Below are positions 1-48,600 of a stretch of DNA of 54,738 nucleotides, piece after piece. Both the position numbers and the translations under genes were made by a program. The notes under the pieces were generated by a model, which was not told the origin of the DNA, did no database searches, and was given only the letters and a program-made list of their open reading frames with translations. The first letter of the stretch is position 1, and each line of letters starts with the position of its first letter. Source of the DNA: a virus (taxonomy: Duplodnaviria > Caudoviricetes); the IMG/VR virus record IMGVR_UViG_3300027719_000273, positions 1 through 54,738 of that record. One strand, given 5' to 3'.

Positions 1-1290
1 TTATTCCTTCTTTTTCTTATCTTTAGCAGCGTGCATGGGTACTACATTGCTATTCACGGCTTCTTTTAATATGTCCCCCATGACACCAGCAGCTTCCTTC
101 TTCATTTTCTTTGTAACATGTCCATATTGTTCAGCTGTAAAGGTTGGGCTATAGTGTCCCAGCTGTTCCTGTACAGCGTTAAGGGAAACGCCGCCTTCCA
201 GCAGCATTGTAGCGTAAGTATGCCGGAGGTCATGGAAACGTACCTTTTCAAGCCCTGCCTGTTTTAAGCAGCCCTGGAAGTCTCTCACAAAGCTTCGCGG
301 ATTAACCAAATTACCTAACCCTGTGCAGAAGACAAGGCGTTCCTTTTCTTCACCTTCACACTGGTATGCTTCCCCGACTTCCAGCTTTTCAGCATTTTGC
401 TTCGCTCTGTGCGATTTTAGGACCTGTATAACTTCTTCCGTTATCTCTACAGATCTCTTTGACTTTTCGGTCTTTGGTTCCTGGATTGCCAGGCCGCCTT
501 TTACACGTACCAGGTGCCGTGCTACTCTAACAGTGCCCGCTTTAAAGTCTATGTCCTTCCACCGTAGGGCCAGTATTTCACCCCTTCTTAATCCGGTTGC
601 CAGATCAAGAAAATACGCTGCATAGTATCGGTATGTTTTAGCCTTGTCTAAAAATATACCTATGTCGTCGCGGCTTAACGTCTTCATTTCCTTCTTTGGA
701 TTGCGGGGCAGCTTGACTGCTTCTGCCGGATTAACAACCAGCTTATGTTCTGACACCGCCTGCTTAAGCGCTGTATTAATTATTCCGTGTATATACCTTA
801 CGGTTTTAGGAGATAAGCCGCCTTCCCTGGGCACCAGTTCGCCTTTTTCATTCTTCATTTTATCGGCCCTACCACCTTCCAGCTTTGCATTATATAGCCG
901 CTGTAGGTCTGCTGTCTGTAAGTCCTTAAGCTTTATTTTTCCTATAGTCGGTATGATGTGCTTATATACTTGGACTTCGTAGCTTTCGTAGGTAGTCTGG
1001 CGAAGGCTGTTTTTCATGGTTACAGTCAACCAGGTTTCGATCCATTCGCTAAAGGTAAGCTTGCCGGGATCTGCGTAAGTTTGTGTCTGCAGCTGATTTT
1101 GTACTTCTATCAATTTGTCCCTTACTTCTTCACGCTTCTTACCGTATACTGTTTTCCTGATCGGTGTACCCTTAAGTGGATCTATGCCAGTGCTTATTTG
1201 TGCGCACCAGGTCCCGTCTTTACGTTGGTATATTGTGCCCTCACCATTGCCGCGCTTGTTTTTCTTATCGGTCTTCTTCGGCCTTGCCAT
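1..1290 (-). CDS. int: Tyrosine recombinase/integrase
   Basis: N-terminal arm-binding motif RGNGEGTIYQRKDGTW; catalytic TGLRRGE, RFHDLRH, LGH..EQYGH. Confidence 0.97.
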   Translation of the reverse strand: MARPKKTDKKNKRGNGEGTIYQRKDGTWCAQISTGIDPLKGTPIRKTVYGKKREEVRDKLIEVQNQLQTQTYADPGKLTFSEWIETWLTVTMKNSLRQTTYESYEVQVYKHIIPTIGKIKLKDLQTADLQRLYNAKLEGGRADKMKNEKGELVPREGGLSPKTVRYIHGIINTALKQAVSEHKLVVNPAEAVKLPRNPKKEMKTLSRDDIGIFLDKAKTYRYYAAYFLDLATGLRRGEILALRWKDIDFKAGTVRVARHLVRVKGGLAIQEPKTEKSKRSVEITEEVIQVLKSHRAKQNAEKLEVGEAYQCEGEEKERLVFCTGLGNLVNPRSFVRDFQGCLKQAGLEKVRFHDLRHTYATMLLEGGVSLNAVQEQLGHYSPTFTAEQYGHVTKKMKKEAAGVMGDILKEAVNSNVVPMHAAKDKKKKE

Positions 1291-1544
1291 TACTTTACCC
1301 CCTGTTCTGCTTTCGCAAGCATAAGTTTTTCTTGGACTTCTCTTTTGGTATGTCCATACACATACTTACGGATATATTTACTTGTTTCCGGGTCTTTGCC
1401 TACGTATAAGGTCCCCATCCATCTACCATCTTTACGCTTTACTACGCTTCCGCTGCCCTTGATTTTATGTTCGATCCGATAATGCGGCTCCGGCTGGATA
1501 AGCTTCAACGGCTTATCTAATGCCTGCTGTTGTCCTCGATCCAT
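1290..1544 (-). CDS. Stand-alone integrase arm-type DNA-binding domain protein
   Basis: 20/48 ungapped identities to the N-terminus of the adjacent integrase; GGAGGG RBS before ATG 1544; TAATG overlap with int. Confidence 0.8.
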   Translation of the reverse strand: MDRGQQQALDKPLKLIQPEPHYRIEHKIKGSGSVVKRKDGRWMGTLYVGKDPETSKYIRKYVYGHTKREVQEKLMLAKAEQGVK

Positions 1545-1570
1545 GTTCGCACCCTCCAATACTTCAATTT

Positions 1571-1864
1571 TTAAAACCCCAGCAATGTATCCAGTGCCGT
1601 ATTTATGTCCTGCGGCATTTCTTTTTTATCAACGGGTACCAGATCCGGCTTTACAGATTTCAAAGGTACAGAACGTGCTGGACGTTCTGTAGACTGCTGC
1701 CTTTTCCTTAGTACCCTGCCTTGACCTTCCAGCTCAAAATAAAGCCGTAAGGCTGCTCGTACTATGTCGCTTTCATCCTGTGTCCGGGTAGCTTCGTTTA
1801 ATGCAGCCTGTATATCGTCGTCCTTGCCGGGGCGCAGGCGTGCCCGTGCTACGCCGTCCGCCAT
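1571..1864 (-). CDS. Ribbon-helix-helix protein, putative ParR-like adaptor
   Basis: ARARLRPGKDDDI...ESDIVRAALRLY fits the RHH pattern; overlaps the end of the parM-like gene. Confidence 0.7.
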   Translation of the reverse strand: MADGVARARLRPGKDDDIQAALNEATRTQDESDIVRAALRLYFELEGQGRVLRKRQQSTERPARSVPLKSVKPDLVPVDKKEMPQDINTALDTLLGF

Positions 1865-2856
1865 TTCCTGCGCCCTATCTTTCCATAGCCCTTAAGGTTT
1901 CCCAGCTGGTCCATGATGTGCGTATTTTCCGGTAGCTTAAGCCTGCGCGCCATTTCATCAGCCCAGCCACCCGTTACTATGCAGCCATGAAAGCGGCGGT
2001 TAATACTGTCAATTTCGTTCTGCGCCTGAGCTGCTATTGAATTAAACGCCCATTCCTTAAGAGGTGCCAGGTCGTACCCGTCATAAGGCAGGCCCTTAAG
2101 TATATAGTGGTCCAGGGTATATATGTCCGGTGCCTGCCCCAGCTGCCCGGTCAGTTCGTCACGGATCAGGCGGTAAGCTTCACCTATACCCAAGTTCGGC
2201 GGGCTGCCGCTACCTGGCTTGATTTCCAACCCTTCAAGTACCAGTATGTCGAAGGTGTGAAAGCCGAAGTCAAGGACCAGCCAAAGCTTACGGGCGTCCG
2301 CTGCGTCGATAAGGTCGCCCTGGTCGTTCGCGTGAAGGTTCATAAAAGCGCCCAGCGGCTGCGGGACTATGTGAAAGTCTGCTATCCATGGGCGTACAGC
2401 CTTCGGCCAGTTCCTAGTCCCTTCTATTGCGCCGTATATGGGTTCAGTATTGAAGTTTTCAAGCATAGCCTGAAAGTCGGCCCGCTGTTTAAAGTAGAAG
2501 TCTACCGGAAGCCCTGTTACCAGGTTTACGTTATTATTCCCAGCTGTAAGCGCCAGGCCTGTTTCCAAAAGTACGCGGGTTATCCAGGCTTTCGCCCTGT
2601 CCTGCCCGGTGCTGGTGTATTTTACGCGGCTGTGTCGTATAGCCAGGTTTCCTATGAAGTACTTTACTTTTGACAAGTCCCCGTCCGGTACGAAATACCT
2701 TACATCGTCACGGTGTATGTCTTCGTCCCTTATCTGCCTGGGTTCGCCTACGACCGCAGGCTGCCGCCAGGTCTTACCGCATGCGCTTATTTTCGGCCAG
2801 CCATAGCCCAGGTCGGCTGCACCTATTACTGGCGTGTTCAAAGTCTTGTTTATCAC
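1849..2856 (-). CDS. parM: ParM/StbA family actin-like ATPase
   Basis: DLGYG (phosphate 1), LVTGLP, PQPLGA, LDFGFHTFD (phosphate 2), VTGGWA (adenosine) motifs. Confidence 0.92.
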   Translation of the reverse strand: MINKTLNTPVIGAADLGYGWPKISACGKTWRQPAVVGEPRQIRDEDIHRDDVRYFVPDGDLSKVKYFIGNLAIRHSRVKYTSTGQDRAKAWITRVLLETGLALTAGNNNVNLVTGLPVDFYFKQRADFQAMLENFNTEPIYGAIEGTRNWPKAVRPWIADFHIVPQPLGAFMNLHANDQGDLIDAADARKLWLVLDFGFHTFDILVLEGLEIKPGSGSPPNLGIGEAYRLIRDELTGQLGQAPDIYTLDHYILKGLPYDGYDLAPLKEWAFNSIAAQAQNEIDSINRRFHGCIVTGGWADEMARRLKLPENTHIMDQLGNLKGYGKIGRRKWRTA

Positions 2857-2878
2857 GGTTATTTACCCCTTTCGTTTT

Positions 2879-2898
2879 TGTGCCACAATGTGCTACAT
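2879..2898. repeat. Two tandem 10-bp repeats upstream of parM, possible RHH binding site
   Basis: TGTGCCACAA then TGTGCTACAT, each TGT-N3-ACA. Confidence 0.4.
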
Positions 2899-2899
2899 T

Positions 2900-3304
2900 T
2901 TATAAGTCTTTTAAACTTTTGGGTTTTTTCATACTAAAATCAAAATATGGGCAGTGTCTGGCTGCATCGTTTTGTTCTTCCAGTGTCATAAAGTTACCCG
3001 GGTCCAGTGTGTCCTTATAACAATAGCACCGTATATCGTAAAGTATGCCAAAGATATTACCATATCCCGACCAAGTGTATTTTGCTGCATAATCCTTTAC
3101 TTTGTGGTAATCTACGAACAGATCCAGGATTTTTACATACACATCACCAATATGGGCACTTATATGTTTCGCTATAGGGAGGTACCTTATATATTCCTGG
3201 TTTATACGCACCTGACCGTTATCCCCTACCATATGGCAGTAATTCGCCATAAGTACTTGGAAAGCCCTTATGTATTCGTCCCGGTTAAGCTTGTTAAGCT
3301 TCAT
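2900..3304 (-). CDS. Hypothetical protein
   Basis: 134-aa ORF with GGGGG RBS, within operon. Confidence 0.7.
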   Translation of the reverse strand: MKLNKLNRDEYIRAFQVLMANYCHMVGDNGQVRINQEYIRYLPIAKHISAHIGDVYVKILDLFVDYHKVKDYAAKYTWSGYGNIFGILYDIRCYCYKDTLDPGNFMTLEEQNDAARHCPYFDFSMKKPKSLKDL

Positions 3305-3305
3305 A

Positions 3306-3521
3306 CTAAACCCCCTTCCTTTCGTCCAGCCACTTATCCCTGGCGATTCGGCAAGCTTCCAGCGTTGGCTTTACGCAGCTGAAAAGTTCGCCGTCATCTG
3401 CTCTGAATTCGTACTGGACATACTTCTTACGGTTTATGCGGCTTGTGAAGCCTTTATATTTCTCCTGACCTATCTTACAAGTGCTTACAGCGTCTAAATT
3501 GTAACCTTCTAATGGTTCCAT
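3306..3521 (-). CDS. Small phage protein, DUF3873-like
   Basis: YVQYEFRADDGELFSCVKPTLEACRIARDKWL resembles this family from memory. Confidence 0.6.
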   Translation of the reverse strand: MEPLEGYNLDAVSTCKIGQEKYKGFTSRINRKKYVQYEFRADDGELFSCVKPTLEACRIARDKWLDERKGV

Positions 3522-3611
3522 ACTTTACACTTCCTTTCGTGTGGCTTTATAGCCTTAAACGAAGCCCGGAAGGTTCCGGGCCTGCGGTCCTGCCCCGCAT
3601 TGACTTAGCGG

Positions 3612-3767
3612 CTATTCGTTAAGATTATACAGCTTAAGGTCCTCTATGGCTGCTTTCAGTCGTTCTTCGGTACCTATAAGCCTAGGGTATGTGGTAGCTG
3701 GTAGATTACTCTTTACTACGTTGTGTATTAGTTCCAGGGCTGTTTCCAGCTGCTTAACTCTATTCAT
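3612..3767 (-). CDS. Small hypothetical protein (51 aa, absent from ORF track)
   Basis: MNRVKQLETALELIHN...; ATGA overlap with upstream stop; GGAGG RBS. Confidence 0.65.
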   Translation of the reverse strand: MNRVKQLETALELIHNVVKSNLPATTYPRLIGTEERLKAAIEDLKLYNLNE

Positions 3768-4162
3768 GCTTTTTGTCCTCCTGGTTGTCTGTTTACATCT
3801 ATAACCTTATCAATTACAGCATTGCCGTCTACCAGCTTTATGATCGCTTGCTTACCCCGCTTTCTAAGTCCGTCCATTTCGTGAAGCATATCCCAGTTTT
3901 TCGCGCCCTTGTATTCGATCGGGTAGCTGTGAAATTGCTCTATATAGTTTACTATCCTGTCTTCCGGACTAAATATGTCCTTTGCAAAGTATCTGCCTAT
4001 GTACTTATGATCCGGTGCGTATTCCTTCTTAAGTGCTATACCTGTCGATACGTGGTATTCGCCATACTCAAATATTACGTTAACTTCGTCGAATGCCTTC
4101 AAAGTGTTTATAGCCTTGTCCTGCACGTCCTGGGGTAATTCCTTAAAGTTTGTGTTTGTCAT
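3764..4162 (-). CDS. Hypothetical protein
   Basis: 132-aa ORF with RBS. Confidence 0.7.
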   Translation of the reverse strand: MTNTNFKELPQDVQDKAINTLKAFDEVNVIFEYGEYHVSTGIALKKEYAPDHKYIGRYFAKDIFSPEDRIVNYIEQFHSYPIEYKGAKNWDMLHEMDGLRKRGKQAIIKLVDGNAVIDKVIDVNRQPGGQKA

Positions 4163-4196
4163 TCTAACATTACCTGCCTTTCTTTCCGGCCAGGGC

Positions 4197-4700
4197 TTAA
4201 GCCCCAGCCTGTTCCTTTGTCATATAATCGAATAACCGCGCTTTAAGATCCTTCATGGTATCGCGGTCTACCATTGCCCGACCTTCCAGCTGGTGTTTTG
4301 CTACCGTTAATTCCTTTATGTCGTCGTAGGCTGCGTCCAGCTTCTTTTCGTTCCCCGTGTAGCTTTCTTGCCATTCCTGGGCTGCCCGTTTGAAGTTATC
4401 GCGCTGCCTGTTGGCTTCTGCTAGTTGATCTTCCAGCTGTTTTACCTTGATAATGTACGGGTCTACGGCGGCTTCTACATCCCTTTTAAGCTGGGATATT
4501 TCGCGGTAGTTGTGGTCGATAGTGTCCTGCGGGTCTATCCCGAAGTCGTCCTGTATTTGCTGTTCTGCATAAGCCGGGAAACGTGCCAGCATACGCTTAA
4601 GGTAGCTGTCCTGCGGTAGCACCTGGTAAAAATCATATATAAGTGCTATTTCCTGGTCTTTTCCCATGTTTTCAGGTATTGTAAGTCTTTTATCTGCCAT
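4197..4700 (-). CDS. Coiled-coil hypothetical protein, first gene of left operon
   Basis: GGGGG RBS before ATG 4700; heptad-like C-terminal half. Confidence 0.7.
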   Translation of the reverse strand: MADKRLTIPENMGKDQEIALIYDFYQVLPQDSYLKRMLARFPAYAEQQIQDDFGIDPQDTIDHNYREISQLKRDVEAAVDPYIIKVKQLEDQLAEANRQRDNFKRAAQEWQESYTGNEKKLDAAYDDIKELTVAKHQLEGRAMVDRDTMKDLKARLFDYMTKEQAGA

Positions 4701-4728
4701 TTGTACGACCCCCTGATTTTTATAAATT

Positions 4729-4827
4729 TGTCTGTATGACAACATTATAATCCTTGATTTGTCTATAAGACAAAGTTAAAATACTGTCATATAGACAAGA
4801 GGTCGTTTACTATCTGTCTTTGCGACA
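4729..4827 (-). promoter_or_regulatory. Sigma-A-like promoter overlapped by four TGTC-N5-GACA palindromes
   Basis: Palindromes start at 4729, 4760, 4785, 4815; minus-strand TTGTCT-18-TATAAT at 4773-4744. Confidence 0.75.
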
Positions 4828-4921
4828 GATTTTCTTTTGTTTTCTTCGTTTTTCACGGCGCTATATTTAATAGAAGAAACAGGGTAAAAAAAAAATATAT
4901 AAGGCAGGCAAAATTAAAAGA

Positions 4922-5060
4922 GGGTTATTAAACTTTCACACCCCCAGCGGTGTAGAAGTTTAATAACCCCTTAAGAAAAAACAATATACTATATATTATA
5001 TAAATAATAATATATTTATTTTATTATTATTTATTATTATAGTAGTATTATTTATACTAC
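4922..5060. repeat. 14-bp perfect inverted repeat plus AT-rich tract, origin-like
   Basis: GGGTTATTAAACTT (4922-4935) pairs with AAGTTTAATAACCC (4956-4969); an almost pure A/T tract follows. Confidence 0.55.
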
Positions 5061-5428
5061 TATAATAAGACTGTAAGTTCTTCGTAGGTATCCCGCAATT
5101 CGTTTATCTGATCCGTGGGTATTTCCCCGTCCAGCCGATCCAGTATTTCGTCAAGCCTTCGCCTGTATTCCAGGGCCATATTCTTACGCCGCAGCCATTC
5201 CAACCATTCTATGTAGTGGGTACATTCCTTAGATTCTGTGAAAGATTTTGCGTTATCCCGTGATTCCTCAAAGCTGACAATTAGCCAGTAAAAAGATTCG
5301 TCCGGGTATTCTATTTTATGCCTTAGAATGTTTGTTTCCATGGCTGCTATAAGGGATATTTTGTCTTCGTGCAATAAATTACCTGTTTCAGCCCAGATTT
5401 TGGTACCGACTTTGTAACTCATATTCAT
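5060..5428 (-). CDS. Hypothetical protein
   Basis: 122-aa ORF with GGGGG RBS. Confidence 0.7.
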   Translation of the reverse strand: MNMSYKVGTKIWAETGNLLHEDKISLIAAMETNILRHKIEYPDESFYWLIVSFEESRDNAKSFTESKECTHYIEWLEWLRRKNMALEYRRRLDEILDRLDGEIPTDQINELRDTYEELTVLL

Positions 5429-5439
5429 TTATTTACCCC

Positions 5440-5595
5440 CTATCCACATTTAAATAATTTCCCGGCGTCTATCCCCAGGGCTTTTGCAAGCTTGCATATA
5501 CTTCGAAGCATTGAAATTCTAAACCCATGTTTTATATAACTTTATATACGCCTTCTTTACTCTTGATCTCTTTAAGCCTACAAATTTATTTTCAA
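5440..5595 (-). pseudogene. Degenerate Cro/XRE HTH gene
   Basis: Fragments MKIN, CRLKEIKSKEG and ICKLAKALGIDAGKLFKCG* lie in different frames with stops; divergent from the repressor. Confidence 0.55.
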
Positions 5596-5770
5596 ACACT
5601 TTCCTTTATTGTAACACTGTTTCCGTTCATTAGGGTGAAATATCCAGGTTATTATTTGTATATACGGAAATTATATTATGTTTGTCATTCCATATATACA
5701 CAAATTATGACATTTTATAGCAATTACACCTAAATATCTATTACAATATATGTATACGAGGGGTGATACT

Positions 5771-6124
5771 ATGAATCCGGGGGAAAATATGCGTAGGATT
5801 AGAGAAACTTTTAAATTGTCAAGGGCAGAAGTAAGCGCAATGACTGGAGTGAACGATCAGTATATAGGGGATATAGAACGTGACGAAAGCAGCCCTACGT
5901 TAGAGGTGCTTCAAAAGCTAGCTTCTGCTTATAATATAACTATCTCGGAATTAGTAGGTGAGGTATCATTATATAATGAGAAGCTTAACGGTCTTATTAA
6001 GAAATTGAAATATACAAATAAGAATGATGTGTATAGGTTACTCAAAACCTTTGAAAAGCTGTCTAAAAAGGAAATAGACTTGCTTATAGACTTAATAAAT
6101 GAAATGAAGAAAAGCCCAGTTTAA
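5771..6124 (+). CDS. XRE family HTH repressor (CI-like)
   Basis: MRRIRETFKLSRAEVSAMTGVNDQYIGDIERDESSPTLEVLQKLA; only convincing plus-strand gene. Confidence 0.9.
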   Translation: MNPGENMRRIRETFKLSRAEVSAMTGVNDQYIGDIERDESSPTLEVLQKLASAYNITISELVGEVSLYNEKLNGLIKKLKYTNKNDVYRLLKTFEKLSKKEIDLLIDLINEMKKSPV

Positions 6125-6143
6125 CTAGGCTTTTTGTTTTTTA
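6109..6143. terminator. Bidirectional intrinsic terminator
   Basis: AAAAGCCCAGTT-T-AACTAGGCTTTTT between convergent genes. Confidence 0.7.
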
Positions 6144-6151
6144 TTCACACC

Positions 6152-6529
6152 TTATAATAAGCCAGTAAGTGCTTCGTATTGCTTGCCATTACAGCGTATG
6201 TATATACTGCTCTGTATACCGTTATCCAGGATCGTTATAACAGCTGTAGAAGTATCTTTACGCTTTCCACCTATGGCTGCACCAGCTACCAGGCCAATAC
6301 CGCCAGTAAGTACGCCGCCGATAATAGCCCCAGCTGCCGCTTTTCCAGCGCTTCTTTTTGCGCTCTCCTGCCAGCCAATCCCTGCTACCTCATATTCCAC
6401 TGTTTTACCCAGAAGTCCTGAATTTATAAATTTCAAAACATGCAGGTCTTTGCCTTTTGCAATTGTAATGCTTTTGCCTTTTATATCCTTATACCCTGCC
6501 ACCAGTTCCAGCGTAATACTCAACAACAT
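6152..6529 (-). CDS. Glycine-zipper membrane protein (moron)
   Basis: AAAGAIIGGVLTGGIGLVAGAAIGG; own promoter TTTACT-17-TATAAT at 6585-6557. Confidence 0.65.
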   Translation of the reverse strand: MLLSITLELVAGYKDIKGKSITIAKGKDLHVLKFINSGLLGKTVEYEVAGIGWQESAKRSAGKAAAGAIIGGVLTGGIGLVAGAAIGGKRKDTSTAVITILDNGIQSSIYIRCNGKQYEALTGLL

Positions 6530-6591
6530 AACCCCCTTTATTACCTGTTTTTATCCATTATATTACATACTTGTCTGTTAGTAAATAAAAG

Positions 6592-6632
6592 AAAAAAGCC
6601 CCTGCGGTCCTTTCCAGGATTCCGTAGGGGCT
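6592..6632 (-). terminator. Intrinsic terminator after lysis genes
   Basis: AGCCCCTACGG...CCGCAGGGGCT stem followed by a T run on the minus strand. Confidence 0.7.
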
Positions 6633-6641
6633 GGGGTAAAA

Positions 6642-7025
6642 CTACCTTATGGAGTTTTTGGTTTTGGTTTCCAGCTGTATTACTTCTTCTGCATATGTAA
6701 GTAGGTTCGCTTCTGCCTTCGCCAGCTGGTCGTCTAACCATTTGACGGCATCCTTTATCAGTTGGTCGATTTCTTCCGGTGTCCATAGCGTCCGGATCAG
6801 CCAGGGCAGGCTGGCGTATACAGCATTCCACTTAATAGGCCCGGTCTTGCTGCCGTAGGCCTGTTCTGCCTTTGCTACCAGGTTCCGAATTATCCTTATG
6901 ACGGCTTTTCTGCGGCCGATTTTCCACAGCCAGGCAAGGACGGCCAGGAATATTAGGACCAGCAGGACGTCCAGCCAGTGGAGTTTAAGGAACGTTAATA
7001 ATATTGTTACAAGTGTCATAATCAT
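6642..7025 (-). CDS. Putative holin
   Basis: N-terminal hydrophobic segment then basic patch; directly after the endolysin. Confidence 0.7.
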   Translation of the reverse strand: MIMTLVTILLTFLKLHWLDVLLVLIFLAVLAWLWKIGRRKAVIRIIRNLVAKAEQAYGSKTGPIKWNAVYASLPWLIRTLWTPEEIDQLIKDAVKWLDDQLAKAEANLLTYAEEVIQLETKTKNSIR

Positions 7026-7026
7026 T

Positions 7027-7845
7027 TTACCCCCTTCTTAAGCCTTTGGCATTTGTAAAGGCTTTTGTTAAATTAGTAAGACTTACAGGTATTTCCCCGT
7101 TAAGGACTTTAAGCCAGTAAACCCGGTCGGTTATTAACCTGGCAGCCAGGGCAGCGTCTACAGCCCTTTCCTGATTCGTTGGTTCCACTTCCGGCTTGAC
7201 TTCGTAAACCAGGCCGTAAAACTCACAAACGCCCATAAGTATCTGGGTTGCAGTTTCTAGCTGGAAAGCAGCCGATGTCATAAGTACGGCTTCCCTAGGG
7301 TCGTCCATAAAACCCGCTTCAATAAGTACCGCGGGCATATTAGTTTCGCGTAGTACATGCAAGTCGCCCATTTTTACCCCGCGGTTTTTCTGTACAGTCC
7401 CGCGTAGTATGTGTTTATGTATTAATCTGGCTAACAGTTCACTTTCACCGCCAAACTTGAAACAGAAGGTTTCTACACCTTCGGCGCTGTTGCCTTCGAA
7501 AGTGTTTAGTATTGCGTTATAATGTTCGCTGATAAATAAGCTTATGGGCTTGCCGCCGATAAGTGCGCTTCCCAGCTGTTTTTTATAGGCAGCGTGGGCC
7601 GCGTTCGCCTTGTCTGTCCTGGTCTGTAGTGGTACGTTATTGTCGCCTGGTGCGACTTGTAACGTCTTAAAGCCCAGGCGCAGGGCGTCAGCTTCCAGTA
7701 GGTCAATAACTGCTCTATTGAATTCGTTTTCGTGGGTGAAGTGCCCGTCCGCGAATTTTGGAGTACGTTTACCTGGTGTTTCCATACCATGGCCGTCGTC
7801 GAGTATAAGCAGCGGTATAAATCCCAGTTTTGCTTTAATATCCAA
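7027..7845 (-). CDS. Endolysin, N-acetylmuramoyl-L-alanine amidase (Amidase_3)
   Basis: LDDGHG, E, FISEHYNA, LHVLRETNMPAVLIEAGFM motifs. Confidence 0.95.
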   Translation of the reverse strand: MDIKAKLGFIPLLILDDGHGMETPGKRTPKFADGHFTHENEFNRAVIDLLEADALRLGFKTLQVAPGDNNVPLQTRTDKANAAHAAYKKQLGSALIGGKPISLFISEHYNAILNTFEGNSAEGVETFCFKFGGESELLARLIHKHILRGTVQKNRGVKMGDLHVLRETNMPAVLIEAGFMDDPREAVLMTSAAFQLETATQILMGVCEFYGLVYEVKPEVEPTNQERAVDAALAARLITDRVYWLKVLNGEIPVSLTNLTKAFTNAKGLRRG

Positions 7846-7846
7846 T

Positions 7847-8284
7847 TTATGGCCCTCCTTTACTTGCCAGGTAGCCGACTACAGCGGCCGCCAGCAGTTT
7901 AACAATTTCCTTTATAGTATTAAGCAGTTTTTCCCATTTCTGCGTTGTTACTTTTGCATTTGTAGCCGCCAGGGCTTCCGCCTTCTTTGCTTCGGTTACA
8001 GTTTCCGTTTCTTCCTTTCTGGTAAGGTTAGTTACCAGGTCCCCCATGAAGGCAAAAAGCCGTTCTTCCAGCCTGTTAAGTTGATCCTTTATTTCACAGA
8101 CATAAACCTTTGTACCGCCCTGGAATTCCATTATGTCTGCCAGATCTTGAGCGTGTTCTTTTACCTGGTAATTTATTTCGTCTACTTGCTTTTTCAATTC
8201 TATCATCTCTACTTTAAGCTTTTTTACGTCGTCACATTGTCCCTCTGGTCCGTGCGCCCCCTTGTTATCGTTATCCCCTGTCAT
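7847..8284 (-). CDS. Coiled-coil protein with C-terminal hydrophobic helix (XhlA-like lysis accessory)
   Basis: Position before the endolysin; IVKLLAAAVVGYLA tail. Confidence 0.55.
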   Translation of the reverse strand: MTGDNDNKGAHGPEGQCDDVKKLKVEMIELKKQVDEINYQVKEHAQDLADIMEFQGGTKVYVCEIKDQLNRLEERLFAFMGDLVTNLTRKEETETVTEAKKAEALAATNAKVTTQKWEKLLNTIKEIVKLLAAAVVGYLASKGGP

Positions 8285-32189: not shown

Positions 32190-32591
32190 TCAAGAAAAAT
32201 TTGTCATAATGACAGATTTACCCTTTAAATCGTCTAAAAATGCCCGTCTATCGTCCTCAAAACCGTTCACGTGGTAATACAAATAGTCTATTGCCCAGTC
32301 GCACCGCTTATAGTACTGGTCCTTCGACAACCCTAGAAGGCGCAATGTAAACAGGAAGCCGTCTTTATCAATCCAGCGCGCCCTACAGCAGCGGTAAAGC
32401 ATCTCAGCTTCCCAGCGCATAGACTTAAGCCCCTGGGCTAATATAATCCGGTTCAGCATAGCGCCCGTTATCCCGTCGTCGGGTTTACAGCCACTATTCC
32501 GTGGCATATCATCAACGCCCCTGCTGTCCTCCAGCAGCCCCTGGTAGTTATCCAGCCAGCTGCGAATAACGTCCCTACCAATCATTCCCAT
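32190..32591 (-). CDS. Putative late transcription activator (ArpU/RinA-like)
   Basis: C-terminal HTH-like LLGLSKDQYYKRCDWAI; last gene before packaging genes. Confidence 0.6.
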   Translation of the reverse strand: MGMIGRDVIRSWLDNYQGLLEDSRGVDDMPRNSGCKPDDGITGAMLNRIILAQGLKSMRWEAEMLYRCCRARWIDKDGFLFTLRLLGLSKDQYYKRCDWAIDYLYYHVNGFEDDRRAFLDDLKGKSVIMTNFS

Positions 32592-42023: not shown

Positions 42024-42099
42024 TCAATCTGTCTGTACGACAGATTGAATTCCTAAAAATAGCCTATACGACAGTCCTTTTAAACGTGTCAGATAGACA
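42024..42099. promoter_or_regulatory. Cluster of TGTC-N5-GACA operator-like palindromes
   Basis: TCAATCTGTC-TGTAC-GACAGATTGA (42024-42048), degenerate copy at 42061, perfect copy at 42087. Confidence 0.72.
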
Positions 42100-45606: not shown

Positions 45607-48600
45607 TTATAGTTCGTCTTCGTAGTTATCGAACAGACCCAGTTCGAAGGCCTTTGCAATATACGCATTAAAGCGGGCTGTTTTCCTGTAGCCCCCGGTC
45701 GTTACCTCTACCATCTTAAGCCGGGTAAGTGCTGTCGCTACAGCCTTCGCTTCTTCCTTGCTTATCGCCAGCATAGCTTCCAGGTCTGACTGTCTTAAGT
45801 ACTTTGTTCTGGCGAACAGGTTAAGGAATTCAGTAAACTTAATTTCGCCTTTAAGGGTGTCGACTTCCTTAAGCTTTTCAGTAAGCTTCTGGTACTTTGG
45901 GTCGTCAAGTTCTTCTTCCTTTACGCATAGCTTCGCGTAGTAGTTCAGTCCGCAGCCACCAGCGTTATATACACCTTTAAGGTAGGATATGATAAAATCA
46001 ACGTGTCCCGGCCATACCTGTATACGTTCACCGCTTTCGTCTGTGCTGTGCAGTAGGGCTGACAGGGCGACCGATAAACGGGCGATTTTGTTACGCTGAT
46101 CCGAAGGTGTAACCAGTGGAATGTCCGAAGCGTTCCCGTACAGCCTGGAAAGTTCCGTAGCGCCTTCCAGTATCTTGTCCTGGGCGTCCGCGGTTATTAT
46201 GACGTCGTCGGTCTTCCTGGACCACGCGAAAAGGATATTATCTTTTAGCAGTTCGGCTGTTATCTGTACCGGGTACGTCTTAAGCTTTTGGTTATACAGT
46301 TCCGGGTCTACGTCGCTATATCGCATGAAGGTAGCGAAGTCGAAACGTCTTATATCCTCATTGTTGAAAATGTCTTTAAGCGCTTCTACGCCCTGGGTGT
46401 AGTCGGAAAGTCTTTTACCATGCGGTACGTTACCGGACAGTATGGCCCTTACTCTGCAAGGAGTTTCAGCCGTTACAGCCCTTTTGACTTCCAGTTTTCC
46501 GTCAGATCTTGCCAGGGTCATTTCCCCGTATTCGTCCTTCGTTATTCCGGTATCTTCGTCAATCCAGATAAGTTCCCGGTCCGCAAGCGGCCAGGCGCCC
46601 CATACTATATACCAGGCCCCGCCAGTGCCAGATTGCTCCATTTTGTAGGTTAAGCCTGTACGGCTTGTACTTTCGGCGTTTACCCTGGTGCCCAGGCCTA
46701 CAAATTTCTGGACCTTTTCAATAAGGGCGCTTTTGCCTGTCGCGGTGTCCCCTAGTATCTTCATTTCTACCCAGCCCCTTATCGGTTGATTATCCCAGGG
46801 TACCGTAAAACGTAGGACACTATGATAAGTAAGTAGGACGCCTAGCAGTACTTCGTCCCTTTCGACTATATGGGTTACGTTATAGGTAAGGTCGTCCATA
46901 ATAGCCTGTAGCTTTTCGTATATGGCTTCCTGGGTGTGTTCGTGCGGTCTGAATATCTTAAGGTTTTCCTTGATTTCATCGGTTATTTTGAAGCGTTCTA
47001 CGACGTCCTGCAATGGCTTTGCAGCTTTTATAATTATCGTACCTTCCTGGTTCTTCGGGTGCGGGAATACGTAGCCATCGATTTCGTAGTACTTGTTTTC
47101 CTGTATATTGAGGTCGCCTACGCTGTATATTTTACGTAGTACGTACTTCCCTTCGGTTACGGCTTTTTCGTCGATAGCCCCTATGTCGTTGTCTTCGGCC
47201 ATGGGTATTGTCAGCAGTTCGTCTAGGTTTACACTTTCTACCGTCGTCATATCGAAGCGCTGGCAGGCTGGTATAGTACTTACCTGGCGAAGTATCCCTT
47301 TTATGTTGTCGTCGCCAACGCCGCACATTTGTAAAAGTTCGCGGTCCTGGACATTCAGTGCCTTGTATATAGTCCCATTTTCTATGTTGTACAACGGACA
47401 GTGGACCTTTTTACAGTTCTTCTTACCCCAGCAGCTGTATTCTACTTTCTTCGGAACTATATATGGGGTATGCTTCTTCCCTGCAACCATTATACGAGTC
47501 TTTACAAGCTTCCCGGTAAATTCAGCCTTTCCTGTCTGTGCTAGGTGTAAGGCTGTGGCTTCTTCCTCTACTTCGTTGTTTTGTTTAAGGCAGGGACAAA
47601 GTTCATAAGTACACGCGACACGGTCGTATTCGTCGTTTCCTGGTTGTTTCGGTCCATGCAGTGACCGGATAAACGCGCAGCCGAAACGGTAAGCGTTTTC
47701 CTGTCCGTATACAGCGTCTATAACACTGCGAGTATTGGCTACCCTTTGTTGTGAACTGTATTTCGTATCTGCGCTAGTATGCTTAATCACCCAATCTGTC
47801 AGTACTTCGGCTGTTTCTTCCTTCGTAAAGCCCGCATCTTTGTAATAGCAAGCCAGCTGGACCGTCGCCTGGTTCCTGTCGCCGTCCTTCTTCCAGCCAC
47901 CTTTCAGAATGTCCAGGACACATACGGGCGGGTTTTGTTTATCAAAGTAGTAGACTTCGTTACTGTATCGACTGGTACTTGTTGCTTCTGCCTGTTCGTA
48001 TTCCTTAAGCTTATCTACGTATAAGGCGAAAGCAAACTTACGCAGTTTTAGCGCTTTCTTCCGGTCTTCGCCTGAAAGCCCTACGTCCTTCCGTGGTTGC
48101 TTTGCCAGTTCCTTTATTTGTTCCAAGTTTAAAAGTCTTAATTCCTCTATGGTTAATTCGATTTTAAATAGTCTGGTATTTTGGTGTATGCTATTCGGTA
48201 AACGCAGCATACGGGCGCTGGTGTATACCGCGGGGTCGATACTTTTAAGTGGTATAATCTTTTCCCTGTTTTCCCCGTCCGGTCCTGATTCTGTTATTCT
48301 ATCCCCCAGGCGATACTTAAGGTAGTTCGCGATATGGTTAAAGGCTTTATGTAGGTCGTTCCTGGGTTCTATCCCTATTGCCTGGTTTGCTATGAGGATA
48401 TGGAAGCCCTTACTACCGGAAAAATATACCCATATATCGCTTTCCTTAAGGTCCAGCTCATGTAAGAAAAAGTCTACGATACGTACAGCTTCGTCTTTCG
48501 CTATTTGCGGGTTTTCCTTGTAGTCAAGGTCGAAGAAAAGGGGTGCCGCGTACGACTCCCCTTTTGTCCTTGTACTGTTAGCGTACCGCTGTACCGTTAT

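What the first reader, a model, noticed from the sequence alone, without database searches (positions are those of the whole stretch)
1..2898. parM - RHH - arm-binding mini-protein - integrase operon: candidate partition-coupled integration switch
Seen: four tightly packed co-oriented genes (16-bp overlap, short gap, TAATG overlap) link an actin-like ATPase and RHH protein to the integrase, with two TGT-N3-ACA repeats just upstream. Known: ParM with an RHH adaptor normally segregates plasmids, and an integrating prophage with an actin/adaptor pair exists (AlpC/AlpA of Corynebacterium CGP3). Inference: this phage may choose between an integrated and a segregating episomal state, or move excised DNA, with the four genes expressed together. 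I do not know this arrangement from any described element.
Basis: partly seen in the sequence, partly recalled or inferred. Interest (0 to 1): 0.8.

Follow-up and report, generated by a model that had tools for sequence, protein, structure and literature searches.

The report
Actin-type partition genes beside prophage integrase
An integrated tailed phage carries a plasmid-style actin-like DNA-moving gene pair directly in front of its integrase genes; the genes are real, but this layout is already known from other integrating elements and is not kept in the phage's relatives.

Summary
On the minus strand lie a ParM-like actin ATPase (2856..1849), a small ParR-like adaptor (1864..1571), a free-standing copy of the integrase N-terminal domain (1544..1290) and a tyrosine integrase (1290..1), with the stated overlaps. 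Two 10-bp iterons sit at 2879-2897.

ParM, the adaptor and the iterons form a conserved cassette. All 8 related loci examined have an overlapping adaptor gene with a conserved C-terminal tail, and 5 of 9 loci have tandem iterons before parM. A complex model puts that tail on ParM (score 0.83, best control 0.01).

The link to the integrase is not conserved. None of 8 close loci has an integrase downstream, and two complete relatives have no recombinase at all.

The arrangement is not undescribed. SXT/R391 conjugative elements carry srpM-srpR-int in one operon with a tested partition role, and a Nitrospirota element (L020) shows parM-parR-xis-int-tRNA.

Most likely the cassette moves free phage DNA and is expressed together with Int from an operator-covered promoter at 4773..4744. 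A dedicated integration/episome switch is not supported.

I rate it a new variant of a known kind, of moderate interest. The free-standing arm-domain protein in the excisionase position is the least ordinary part.

The parts
1849..2856 (-). ParM-like actin-fold ATPase, 335 aa, GTG start after a GGGG ribosome-binding site
   Evidence: Pfam ALP_N 4.5e-19 and PHROG 691 4.2e-33. The profile of 20 homologues matches the solved pCBH ParM 5.4e-27, Dh-cParM1 1.2e-24 and pSK41-type ParM 2.9e-14. Nucleotide-binding positions D15, G17, G19, K22, D196, G198, T201, G296 and G297 are invariant or nearly so in 20 homologues.
1571..1864 (-). ParR-like adaptor, 97 aa: N-terminal ribbon-helix-helix-like part, variable linker, conserved C-terminal tail (L-D-x-L-L-G-x-F type)
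   Evidence: An overlapping small gene of this family follows parM in 8 of 8 close loci examined (alignment A3). The AlphaFold2 monomer has helices 14-24, 31-42 and 87-95 with mean pLDDT 63.5. Weak PDB profile hits to the RHH proteins NikR and CopG. The complex model places residues 87, 90-91 and 93-97 on ParM.
2879..2897 (.). Two tandem 10-bp iterons (TGTAGCACA / TGTGGCACA on the coding strand), candidate ParR site, about 20 nt before the parM ribosome-binding site
   Evidence: Sequence. The same unit occurs 3 times at the same position in L031. Other tandem units precede parM in L010, L011 and L012. Overall 5 of 9 loci against 0.52 expected.
1290..1544 (-). Free-standing paralogue of the integrase N-terminal (presumed arm-type DNA-binding) domain, 84 aa, lying in the position where an excisionase gene often lies
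   Evidence: BLASTP against its own integrase gives 43% identity over 46 residues, E 5e-11. Four free-standing homologues (60-80 aa, 73-84% identity) all end at the same C-terminal motif. The AlphaFold2 model has three strands and one helix, mean pLDDT 74. No PDB fold match.
1..1290 (-). Tyrosine integrase, 429 aa, at the left edge of the provirus record
   Evidence: Phage_integrase 2.8e-29 and Phage_int_SAM_3 9.6e-16; PHROG 1 integrase 3.9e-79. The record is classed as a provirus, 96% complete.
2900..4700 (-). Five upstream genes of the same predicted transcription unit: 167-aa coiled-coil protein (4700..4197), 132 aa, 51 aa, DUF3873 protein (3521..3306) and 134 aa
   Evidence: ORFs. DUF3873 7.7e-19; the others have no family. 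No terminator-like site on the minus strand between 4744 and 204; the only minus-strand site below the promoter is a weak one inside int at 203..189.
4728..4827 (-). Promoter-like site (TTGTCT, 18 nt, TATAAT at 4773..4744) covered by four TGTC-N5-GACA palindromes
   Evidence: Promoter scan gives 10 of 12 matches. The window has 7 exact palindromes against 0.38 expected, four of them here. None occurs in the ParM loci of close relatives: 81 of the 85 loci held have none, one of the four with matches is the window's own stretch (L001), and L014, L016 and L018 hold 1-2 single sites.
4922..4969 (-). Strong hairpin followed by a U-rich tail, a likely intrinsic terminator that separates the operon from the gene upstream
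   Evidence: RNA fold -29.7 kcal/mol, z-score -6.2, 0 of 200 shuffles as stable.

Best explanation
Positions 1-2898 hold two separate modules that lie side by side at the left end of an integrated tailed phage. They are most likely read in one leftward transcript starting at an operator-covered promoter near 4773..4744.

Module 1 is a type II (ParMRC-like) DNA-moving cassette. It has two 10-bp iterons, an actin-like ATPase and a small adaptor. The adaptor's N-terminal part is inferred to bind the iterons, and its conserved C-terminal tail is predicted to dock on the ATPase. This cassette belongs to the phage lineage itself, because non-integrating relatives keep it. It most likely attaches free phage DNA (infecting, excised or replicating) to growing filaments, for positioning or for distribution to daughter cells.

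Module 2 is the integration module: a tyrosine integrase preceded by a free-standing copy of its own N-terminal domain. That copy sits where an excisionase usually sits and may modulate Int at its arm sites.

The adjacency means ParM, the adaptor and Int are made together when the promoter fires, as in the srpM-srpR-int operon of SXT/R391 elements. It is a modular juxtaposition, not a dedicated integration/partition switch.

Shown here: gene identities, overlaps, conservation of the ParM/adaptor/iteron unit, and lack of conservation of the integrase link. Inferred: DNA binding by the adaptor, filament formation, co-transcription, timing of expression, and any role of the mini protein.
For: Identities.

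Cassette unity:
- An adaptor gene overlaps the end of parM in 8 of 8 close loci.
- The adaptor alignment of 11 sequences keeps the N-terminal R-L-R...S-D-x-V-R-x-A-L-R part and the C-terminal tail while the linker varies.
- Iterons lie directly before parM in 5 of 9 loci (0.52 expected; 1 of 2000 shuffles reached 5). The iteron sequence changes together with the adaptor's N-terminal strand: the window and L031 share both, while L009/L011, L010 and L012 differ in both.

Complex model: score 0.83, best of 3 controls 0.01. That mark was reached by 58 of 80 solved complexes and 2 of 110 mismatched pairs. The runs agree in at least 65% of contacts and the partner's pLDDT is at least 65. The interface is the adaptor's C-terminal tail. 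A ParM-ParR peptide complex has been solved (recalled, not fetched), so the pass may reflect that likeness.

Lineage:
- Bacillus phage vB_BboS-125 (43% ParM identity) carries the pair as gp17/gp18 between the lysis and early genes.
- That phage and a 59.7-kb terminally repeated viral genome, both 100% complete, have no tyrosine or serine recombinase.

Transcription: a terminator hairpin is followed by a promoter-like site with four palindromic operators. No minus-strand terminator-like site lies between it and int. Each gene has its own GGGGG-type ribosome-binding site.

Precedents:
- The srpMRC-int operon of SXT/R391 stabilises the excised element (PMC4489591, passages).
- AlpAC of prophage CGP3 is induced early and is needed for efficient phage DNA replication (PMC4446434, passages).
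- The independent element L020 has parM, an RHH-like gene, an HTH_17 Xis-like gene, an XRE gene, int and tRNA-Arg in a row.
Against: - Only two iterons are present, fewer than in studied centromeres (four repeats in srpC and 24 alpS repeats, per the passages read). The site could be only an operator.
- No further copies occur elsewhere in the window.
- The RHH fold is not established: sequence hits are weak, the model has mean pLDDT 63.5 with no strand called in the monomer, and Foldseek found nothing.
- No expression data exist, so co-transcription rests on pattern scans only. That scan found no clear sigma-70-type promoter directly before parM, so a separate promoter there is neither shown nor excluded.
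The four-gene order might therefore be conserved in a narrow clade.
- L020 and SXT/R391 show that parMR next to int recurs, which could mean the adjacency is selected rather than incidental.
Confidence: 0.55

Rival explanations
1. The phage has two ways of being carried: integrated, or as a low-copy episome that ParM and the adaptor segregate. Co-expression with Int then couples the choice, or protects excised circles from being lost at division, exactly as srpMRC does for SXT/R391.
For: - The gene order parM-parR-(mini)-int lies in one predicted operon.
- The same order with a tested stabilising role exists in SXT/R391 (PMC4489591, passages).
- L020 repeats the order next to a tRNA attachment site.
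- Relatives without any recombinase keep ParMR. They might be plasmid-prophages rather than lytic phages; the paper calls vB_BboS-125 lytic only because it lacks an integrase (PMC6375668, passages).
- The phage has its own DNA polymerase and primase-helicase.
Against: - None of the 8 close ParM loci has int downstream, so the coupling is not a conserved unit.
- No plasmid record holds a close relative: the best plasmid hit is 26% identical, among 30 records.
- In the one metagenome run that holds the DNA, no contig joint was seen over 1-8000. The attachment sites lie outside the window, so this says little.
- In CGP3 the authors argued against daughter-cell segregation (PMC4446434, discussion passages).
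Confidence: 0.2
2. The ParM/adaptor pair serves lytic development only, placing replicating or packaging DNA in the cell as AlpAC or PhuZ do. On this reading it has no functional relation to integration, and its position beside int is an accident of where the integration module was inserted.
For: - ParM homologues occur in 144 phage records, most of them large virulent Bacillus phages such as SPO1 and CP-51.
- vB_BboS-125 has the pair and no integrase.
- L008 has a different integrase, placed upstream rather than downstream.
Against: - The tight packing with int, with no terminator in between, means both are made together whatever the origin.
- parMR next to int recurs in L020 and in SXT/R391.
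Confidence: 0.15
3. The cassette is inert cargo or in decay, and the repeats are a chance feature.
For: - The two repeats alone are within chance in this window.
- No expression evidence.
Against: - All ORFs are intact.
- ATP-binding positions are conserved in 20 homologues.
- The adaptor tail and the iterons are conserved across loci.
- A confident predicted interface.
Confidence: 0.05

Closest known systems
srpMRC-int operon of SXT/R391 integrative conjugative elements (Carraro et al. 2015, PMC4489591; passages read)
   Same: An actin-type ParM homologue, a small basic adaptor gene directly after it, repeats in the leader before the ATPase gene, and the integrase gene immediately downstream in the same operon of an element that normally sits integrated. 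There the locus was shown to stabilise a test plasmid and to reduce loss of the element.
   Different: - The host element is a conjugative element of Gammaproteobacteria, not a tailed phage of a presumably Gram-positive host.
- Sequence relationship to SrpM/SrpR was not tested here.
- There is no free-standing arm-domain gene between the adaptor and int.
- The promoter there is activated by SetCD, whereas here it is covered by palindromic operators.
AlpC/AlpA/alpS of Corynebacterium glutamicum prophage CGP3 (PMC4446434 and PMC5539076; passages and abstract read)
   Same: A prophage-borne actin-like protein with a DNA-binding adaptor and repeat sites. It is induced early on prophage induction and links circular phage DNA to filaments.
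   Different: - The gene order is adaptor first, then actin.
- There are 24 repeats.
- The pair lies at the border of a 187-kb cryptic prophage opposite to the integrase.
- Here the order is the plasmid-like motor-then-adaptor, next to int, in a 55-kb apparently complete siphovirus.
ParMRC of plasmids (R1, pSK41) and pCBH ParM of Clostridium botulinum
   Same: - Actin fold; the profile matches pCBH ParM at 5.4e-27 and a pSK41-type ParM at 2.9e-14.
- The adaptor gene lies downstream and overlaps the ATPase gene.
- Tandem repeats lie upstream.
- The adaptor's C-terminal tail is predicted to bind the ATPase.
   Different: - Carried by an integrated phage.
- Only two 10-bp repeats.
- The adaptor has no significant sequence match to any named ParR family.
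- The closest plasmid-borne homologue is only 26% identical.
gp17/gp18 of Bacillus phage vB_BboS-125 (Elmenteitavirus; PMC6375668, passages read)
   Same: The closest isolated phage. ParM is 43% identical and the adaptor N-terminus 60% identical. The pair lies in the same place, between the lysis genes and the early/replication genes. The phage also has tail genes related to the window's and its own DNA polymerase I.
   Different: It has no integrase or mini gene anywhere, no tandem repeats directly before its parM at my threshold, and is described as lytic.

Membership tests
Type II (ParMRC) partition system | Actin-fold ATPase of the ParM/Alp kind with intact nucleotide-binding motifs | tested here: met
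   ALP_N 4.5e-19. PDB ParM matches down to 5.4e-27. D15, G17, G19, K22, D196, G198, T201, G296 and G297 are conserved in 20 homologues. Assigning these positions to the phosphate and adenosine motifs is from recall.
Type II (ParMRC) partition system | Small adaptor gene next to the ATPase gene, with a ribbon-helix-helix DNA-binding N-terminus | tested here: inconclusive
   The gene is present and conserved in 8 of 8 close loci. Evidence for the RHH fold is only weak: ParD_antitoxin E 0.05, NikR 0.017 and CopG 0.23/0.47. The monomer model has two helices after an extended N-terminus, mean pLDDT 63.5. No Foldseek match.
Type II (ParMRC) partition system | The adaptor's C-terminus binds the ATPase | tested here: met
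   In silico only. The complex model scores 0.83 against 0.01 for the best of 3 controls. The mark was reached by 58 of 80 solved complexes and 2 of 110 mismatched pairs. The interface is adaptor residues 87, 90-91 and 93-97. The pass may reflect likeness to a solved ParM-ParR peptide complex (recalled).
Type II (ParMRC) partition system | Centromere-like tandem repeats near the operon, bound by the adaptor | tested here: inconclusive
   Repeats are present (2 copies here, 3 in L031; 5 of 9 loci against 0.52 expected). Binding cannot be tested with these tools, and two copies are few.
Type II (ParMRC) partition system | ATP-dependent filament formation and stabilisation of a replicon | not testable with these tools
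   Needs protein biochemistry and a plasmid stability assay.
srpMRC-int type operon of integrating elements | parM and parR homologues directly upstream of int on one transcript in an integrated element | tested here: inconclusive
   The gene order and packing are met, with one extra gene in between. The record is a provirus. A single transcript is only predicted. Homology to SrpM/SrpR was not tested.
AlpAC system of CGP3 | Adaptor gene upstream of the actin gene, with many alpS repeats in the promoter region | tested here: not met
   Here the ATPase gene comes first and only two repeats are present. The AlpAC order is taken from PMC4446434 passages.
Tyrosine integrase with an arm-type N-terminal domain | Catalytic domain, SAM-like core-binding domain and an AP2-like arm-binding domain (Pfam Arm-DNA-bind_4) | tested here: inconclusive
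   Catalytic and SAM-like domains are met. Arm-DNA-bind_4 matches the Int N-terminus only below threshold (E 0.011, 12 bits against a cut-off of 22.3) and gives no listed match for the mini protein. Arm sites lie outside the window.
Excisionase / recombination directionality factor (for the mini protein) | Winged-helix or HTH_17-type small DNA-bending protein encoded next to int | tested here: not met
   The position is met. The fold is not: the mini is a three-strand, one-helix paralogue of the Int N-terminus. HTH_17 and Tn916-Xis have no match in the window, and Phage_AlpA has only an 11.7-bit fragment elsewhere. This does not exclude a directionality role by another mechanism.

The most novel reading that the evidence does not exclude
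The free-standing Int arm-domain protein is a new kind of directionality or dosage factor. On this reading it competes with, or bridges, Int at the arm sites. It would be made from the same induction-controlled transcript as ParM and its adaptor, so the phage couples excision to immediate capture of the excised circle by an actin-like filament. That would be a phage counterpart of the SXT/R391 srpMR-int logic, with an added Int modulator in place of a classical excisionase.
Probability: 0.12. Interest if true: 0.7.

Novelty: new variant of a known kind. Interest (0 to 1): 0.4.

Why it matters
It is still untested why integrating elements keep actin-type partition genes, outside SXT/R391 and CGP3.

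This provirus offers a compact case with clear parts: iterons, a motor, an adaptor with a predicted docking tail, and an integrase on the same predicted transcript. That would let one ask directly whether such cassettes hold on to excised DNA or organise lytic replication.

It also suggests that some 'chromosome-encoded ParMs' studied recently may sit on prophages or integrated elements. PMC12270681 does not contain the words prophage, phage, integrase or mobile.

The free-standing arm-domain protein is rare. Among the top 150 representative clusters matched by its profile, only 1 is a genuine stand-alone form as far as I inspected. It deserves its own test.

Tried and rejected
**Close relatives by DNA or single protein**
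- blastn of 1-3600 against phage records found no match.
- A single-protein scan of viral contigs with ParM found no relative.
- A viral-contig scan with Int found only 25-36% identical integrases without ParM.
- A viral-contig scan with the mini alignment found only integrase N-termini (L081-L083).

**Contexts and wider searches**
- The mini profile found no match at E 1e-6 in 401 genomes of the class of G005. The threshold may have been too strict, so this shows nothing.
- A 'longer' search for fused forms of the mini scored nothing, which is weak evidence only.

**Folds**
- Foldseek against PDB gave no significant match for the mini (best E 0.15) or for the adaptor model (best E 6.6).
- The PDB sequence profile of the mini hit only HisF and designed barrels. 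I take these as chance, and no solved integrase domain was hit.

**Defence role:** PADLOC gave no hit for ParM, the adaptor or the mini protein.

**Dispersed centromere:** I considered whether the TGTC-N5-GACA palindromes might be a dispersed centromere for the adaptor and rejected it. They are absent from the ParM loci of close relatives, whereas the 10-bp iterons are conserved with L031.

**Sequencing runs**
- Only one DNA run, a freshwater metagenome that may be the source, holds the stretch. No RNA holder is listed.
- Laying its contigs on 1-8000 showed no joints and no variants. One contig runs 147 nt past position 1 and ends there. This is neither evidence for nor against circles, because the attachment sites lie outside the window.

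**Other limits**
- Earlier scan notes say ParMR is common in integrating P2-like prophages of E. coli. My literature search for this did not confirm or refute it from the listing alone.
- Supplementary files of the papers were not opened.

Full report
**What the window is.** The window is a complete IMG/VR provirus record of 54,738 bases, estimated 96% complete. Nearly every gene is on the minus strand. Reading leftwards from the right end, it encodes:
- SbcCD-like proteins, a resolvase, helicases, a primase-helicase and a family A DNA polymerase;
- portal and head proteins;
- tail proteins, and an amidase endolysin at 7845..7027;
- one plus-strand XRE-type regulator (5750-6124);
- finally the block under study, which ends with the integrase stop codon at position 1.

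The integrase therefore lies at the edge of the provirus. The attachment site must lie just outside the window.

**The observation.**
- The ParM-like protein matches Pfam ALP_N (4.5e-19) and PHROG 691 'partition protein' (4.2e-33). A profile of 20 homologues matches solved ParM structures: pCBH ParM 5.4e-27, a chromosomal Desulfitobacterium ParM 1.2e-24 and a pSK41-type ParM 2.9e-14.
- The integrase has the catalytic and SAM-like domains.
- The mini protein is a paralogue of the integrase's first 60 residues (43% identity, E 5e-11). Its likely start is the ATG at 1544 behind a GGAGGG site, giving the 84-aa form found in the protein collection.
- The RHH assignment of the 97-aa protein is weak by sequence.
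- The two 9-bp words at 2879-2897 are really a 10-bp tandem unit. They are not significant in this window alone.

**ParM, the adaptor and the iterons are one conserved cassette.** Alignment-based scans of viral, genome and metagenome contigs gave 63 loci with a ParM relative.
- In all 8 close loci I examined (ParM 36-66% identical: L003, L004, L008-L012, L031), a small gene overlaps the end of parM by 13-25 nt.
- These small proteins share an N-terminal R-L-R-x-G-K-D-D-D ... S-D-x-V-R-x-A-L-R part, a variable linker and a C-terminal L-D-x-L-L-G-x-F tail (alignment of 11 sequences).
- The AlphaFold2 monomer shows an extended N-terminus, two helices and a C-terminal helix (mean pLDDT 63.5). That layout is what an RHH adaptor would give, but it is not proof.
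- A complex model of ParM with the adaptor scored 0.83 against 0.01 for the best of 3 controls. That mark was reached by 58 of 80 solved complexes and by 2 of 110 mismatched pairs. The runs agree in at least 65% of contacts and the partner's pLDDT is at least 65. The contact is made by adaptor residues 87, 90-91 and 93-97, the conserved tail. A ParM-ParR peptide complex has been solved (recalled), so the pass may reflect that likeness.
- Directly before parM, L031 has three copies of the window's 10-bp unit. L010, L011 and L012 have two copies of other units, and L009 has one. Overall 5 of 9 loci have tandem repeats against 0.52 expected, and 1 of 2000 shuffles reached 5.
- Loci that share the iteron also share the adaptor's N-terminal strand, and loci with other iterons have other strands. 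This fits recognition of the iterons by the adaptor.

**The link to the integrase is not conserved.**
- tblastn with the window's Int and mini proteins and a custom integrase HMM found an integrase in the flanks of only 2 of the 63 loci. Of these loci, 41 have at least 2.5 kb downstream and 38 have at least 2.5 kb upstream.
- None of the 8 close loci has one downstream.
- L008 (Halalkalibacter flavus) has tRNA genes, a different 329-aa integrase, an HTH_36 protein and small genes upstream. After parM and the adaptor come the same genes as in phage vB_BboS-125.
- L031 (66% ParM identity) has the pair near what looks like the end of the element, followed by a subtilase gene and no integrase.
- Phage vB_BboS-125 and a 59.7-kb terminally repeated viral genome, both 100% complete, have the pair but no tyrosine or serine recombinase. 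The authors of vB_BboS-125 list it among phages without an integrase (PMC6375668, passages).
- The cassette therefore belongs to the phage lineage, and integration modules have been added beside it at least twice with unrelated integrases.

**The arrangement is known elsewhere.**
- In SXT/R391 conjugative elements, srpM (actin-type), srpR and int form one operon, with int immediately downstream of srpR. SrpR binds repeats in the leader of srpM, and the locus stabilises a test plasmid and reduces loss of the element (PMC4489591, passages).
- In prophage CGP3 the AlpC/AlpA pair is induced early and is needed for efficient replication of the excised phage DNA. Its authors argued against daughter-cell segregation (PMC4446434, passages).
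- Among my own loci, L020 from a Nitrospirota genome has a ParM-like gene, an overlapping 79-aa RHH-like gene, an HTH_17 excisionase-like gene, an XRE gene, an integrase and tRNA-Arg in a row. This is the same layout as the window, with a classical excisionase where the window has the mini gene.
- Earlier notes of this scan also report ParMR cassettes in integrating P2-like prophages. I did not verify these.

**Transcription.**
- Upstream of the block a 21-bp-stem hairpin with a U-rich tail (-29.7 kcal/mol, z -6.2) ends the preceding gene.
- It is followed by a promoter-like site (10 of 12 matches) covered by four TGTC-N5-GACA palindromes. The window has 7 exact copies against 0.38 expected.
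- No minus-strand terminator-like site lies between this promoter and int.
- The predicted unit is therefore nine genes: five of unknown function, then parM, the adaptor, the mini gene and int. It is controlled by a regulator shared with other phage operons.
- Whether that regulator is the lysogeny repressor is unknown.
- No classical excisionase family matches anywhere in the window.

**The mini protein.**
- Four free-standing homologues (60-80 aa, 73-84% identical) end at the same C-terminal residues, so it is a maintained gene rather than a recent fragment.
- A profile search of 1.84 billion representatives found 2193 matches. Only one cluster, its own, lies below 1e-30.
- The 11 other short top hits I inspected continue into integrase linker sequence or have aberrant tails, so they look like truncated integrases.
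- Its model is three strands and a helix (mean pLDDT 74). Foldseek and PDB sequence searches gave no usable match, and Pfam Arm-DNA-bind_4 matches only the integrase, below threshold.
- 'Arm-binding' is therefore an inference from its position in the integrase. Its role (directionality factor, Int inhibitor or helper) is open.

**Verdict.** The partition-like cassette has the usual three parts, and it sits in one predicted operon with the integration genes.

The proposed integration/episome switch is not supported, for two reasons. The cassette is older than its link to int and independent of it. The layout also has a tested precedent in SXT/R391.

What remains new is the setting (a tailed, apparently complete temperate phage) and the free-standing arm-domain gene in the excisionase position. 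I rate it a new variant of a known kind, with interest 0.4.

Noticed in passing
window 4729-4827, 32202-32214, 42030-42042, 42087-42099: Seven exact TGTC-N5-GACA palindromes against 0.38 expected. Four cover the promoter of the par/int operon and the others lie before two further gene blocks. This points to one regulator for three operons. The palindromes are absent from the ParM loci of close relatives.
   Followed up: partly
L020:6004-9146: A Nitrospirota genome locus with a ParM-like gene, a 79-aa RHH-like gene, an HTH_17 excisionase-like gene, an XRE gene, a tyrosine integrase and tRNA-Arg in a row, next to DnaC-like and HTH_36 replication genes. It is an independent integrated element with the same parMR-int layout.
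   Followed up: partly
L008:1490-11452: A Halalkalibacter flavus prophage of the vB_BboS-125 type integrated beside tRNA-Gly/tRNA-Arg. A 329-aa integrase lies 3.2 kb upstream of parM, and an M23 peptidase and a 975-aa protein lie downstream.
   Followed up: partly
window 4746-5059: An AT-rich gap (GC about 0.385 over 4001-6000) with several palindromes, including a perfect 15-nt inverted repeat at 5034-5068. Not examined.
   Followed up: no
window 48306-48386 (+): ARAGORN calls a tRNA-Phe with anticodon AAA inside the 1049-aa primase-helicase gene on the opposite strand. It is probably a false call.
   Followed up: no
literature, PMC12270681: The 2025 paper on 'genome-encoded ParMs' never uses the words prophage, phage, integrase or mobile. 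Its Dh-cParM1 matches this phage ParM family's profile at 1.2e-24. Chromosomal ParMs may often be carried by prophages or integrated elements.
   Followed up: no
window 1 and beyond: In the one metagenome run that holds this DNA, the contig covering 1-8000 ends 147 nt past the integrase stop. An assembly break there could mark the attachment site or strain variation. It cannot be judged from the window.
   Followed up: no
L031:3068-3322: In the closest visible relative, an 84-aa protein of no family follows the adaptor gene, where the window has the mini gene. The slot after the adaptor seems to hold swappable small genes.
   Followed up: no
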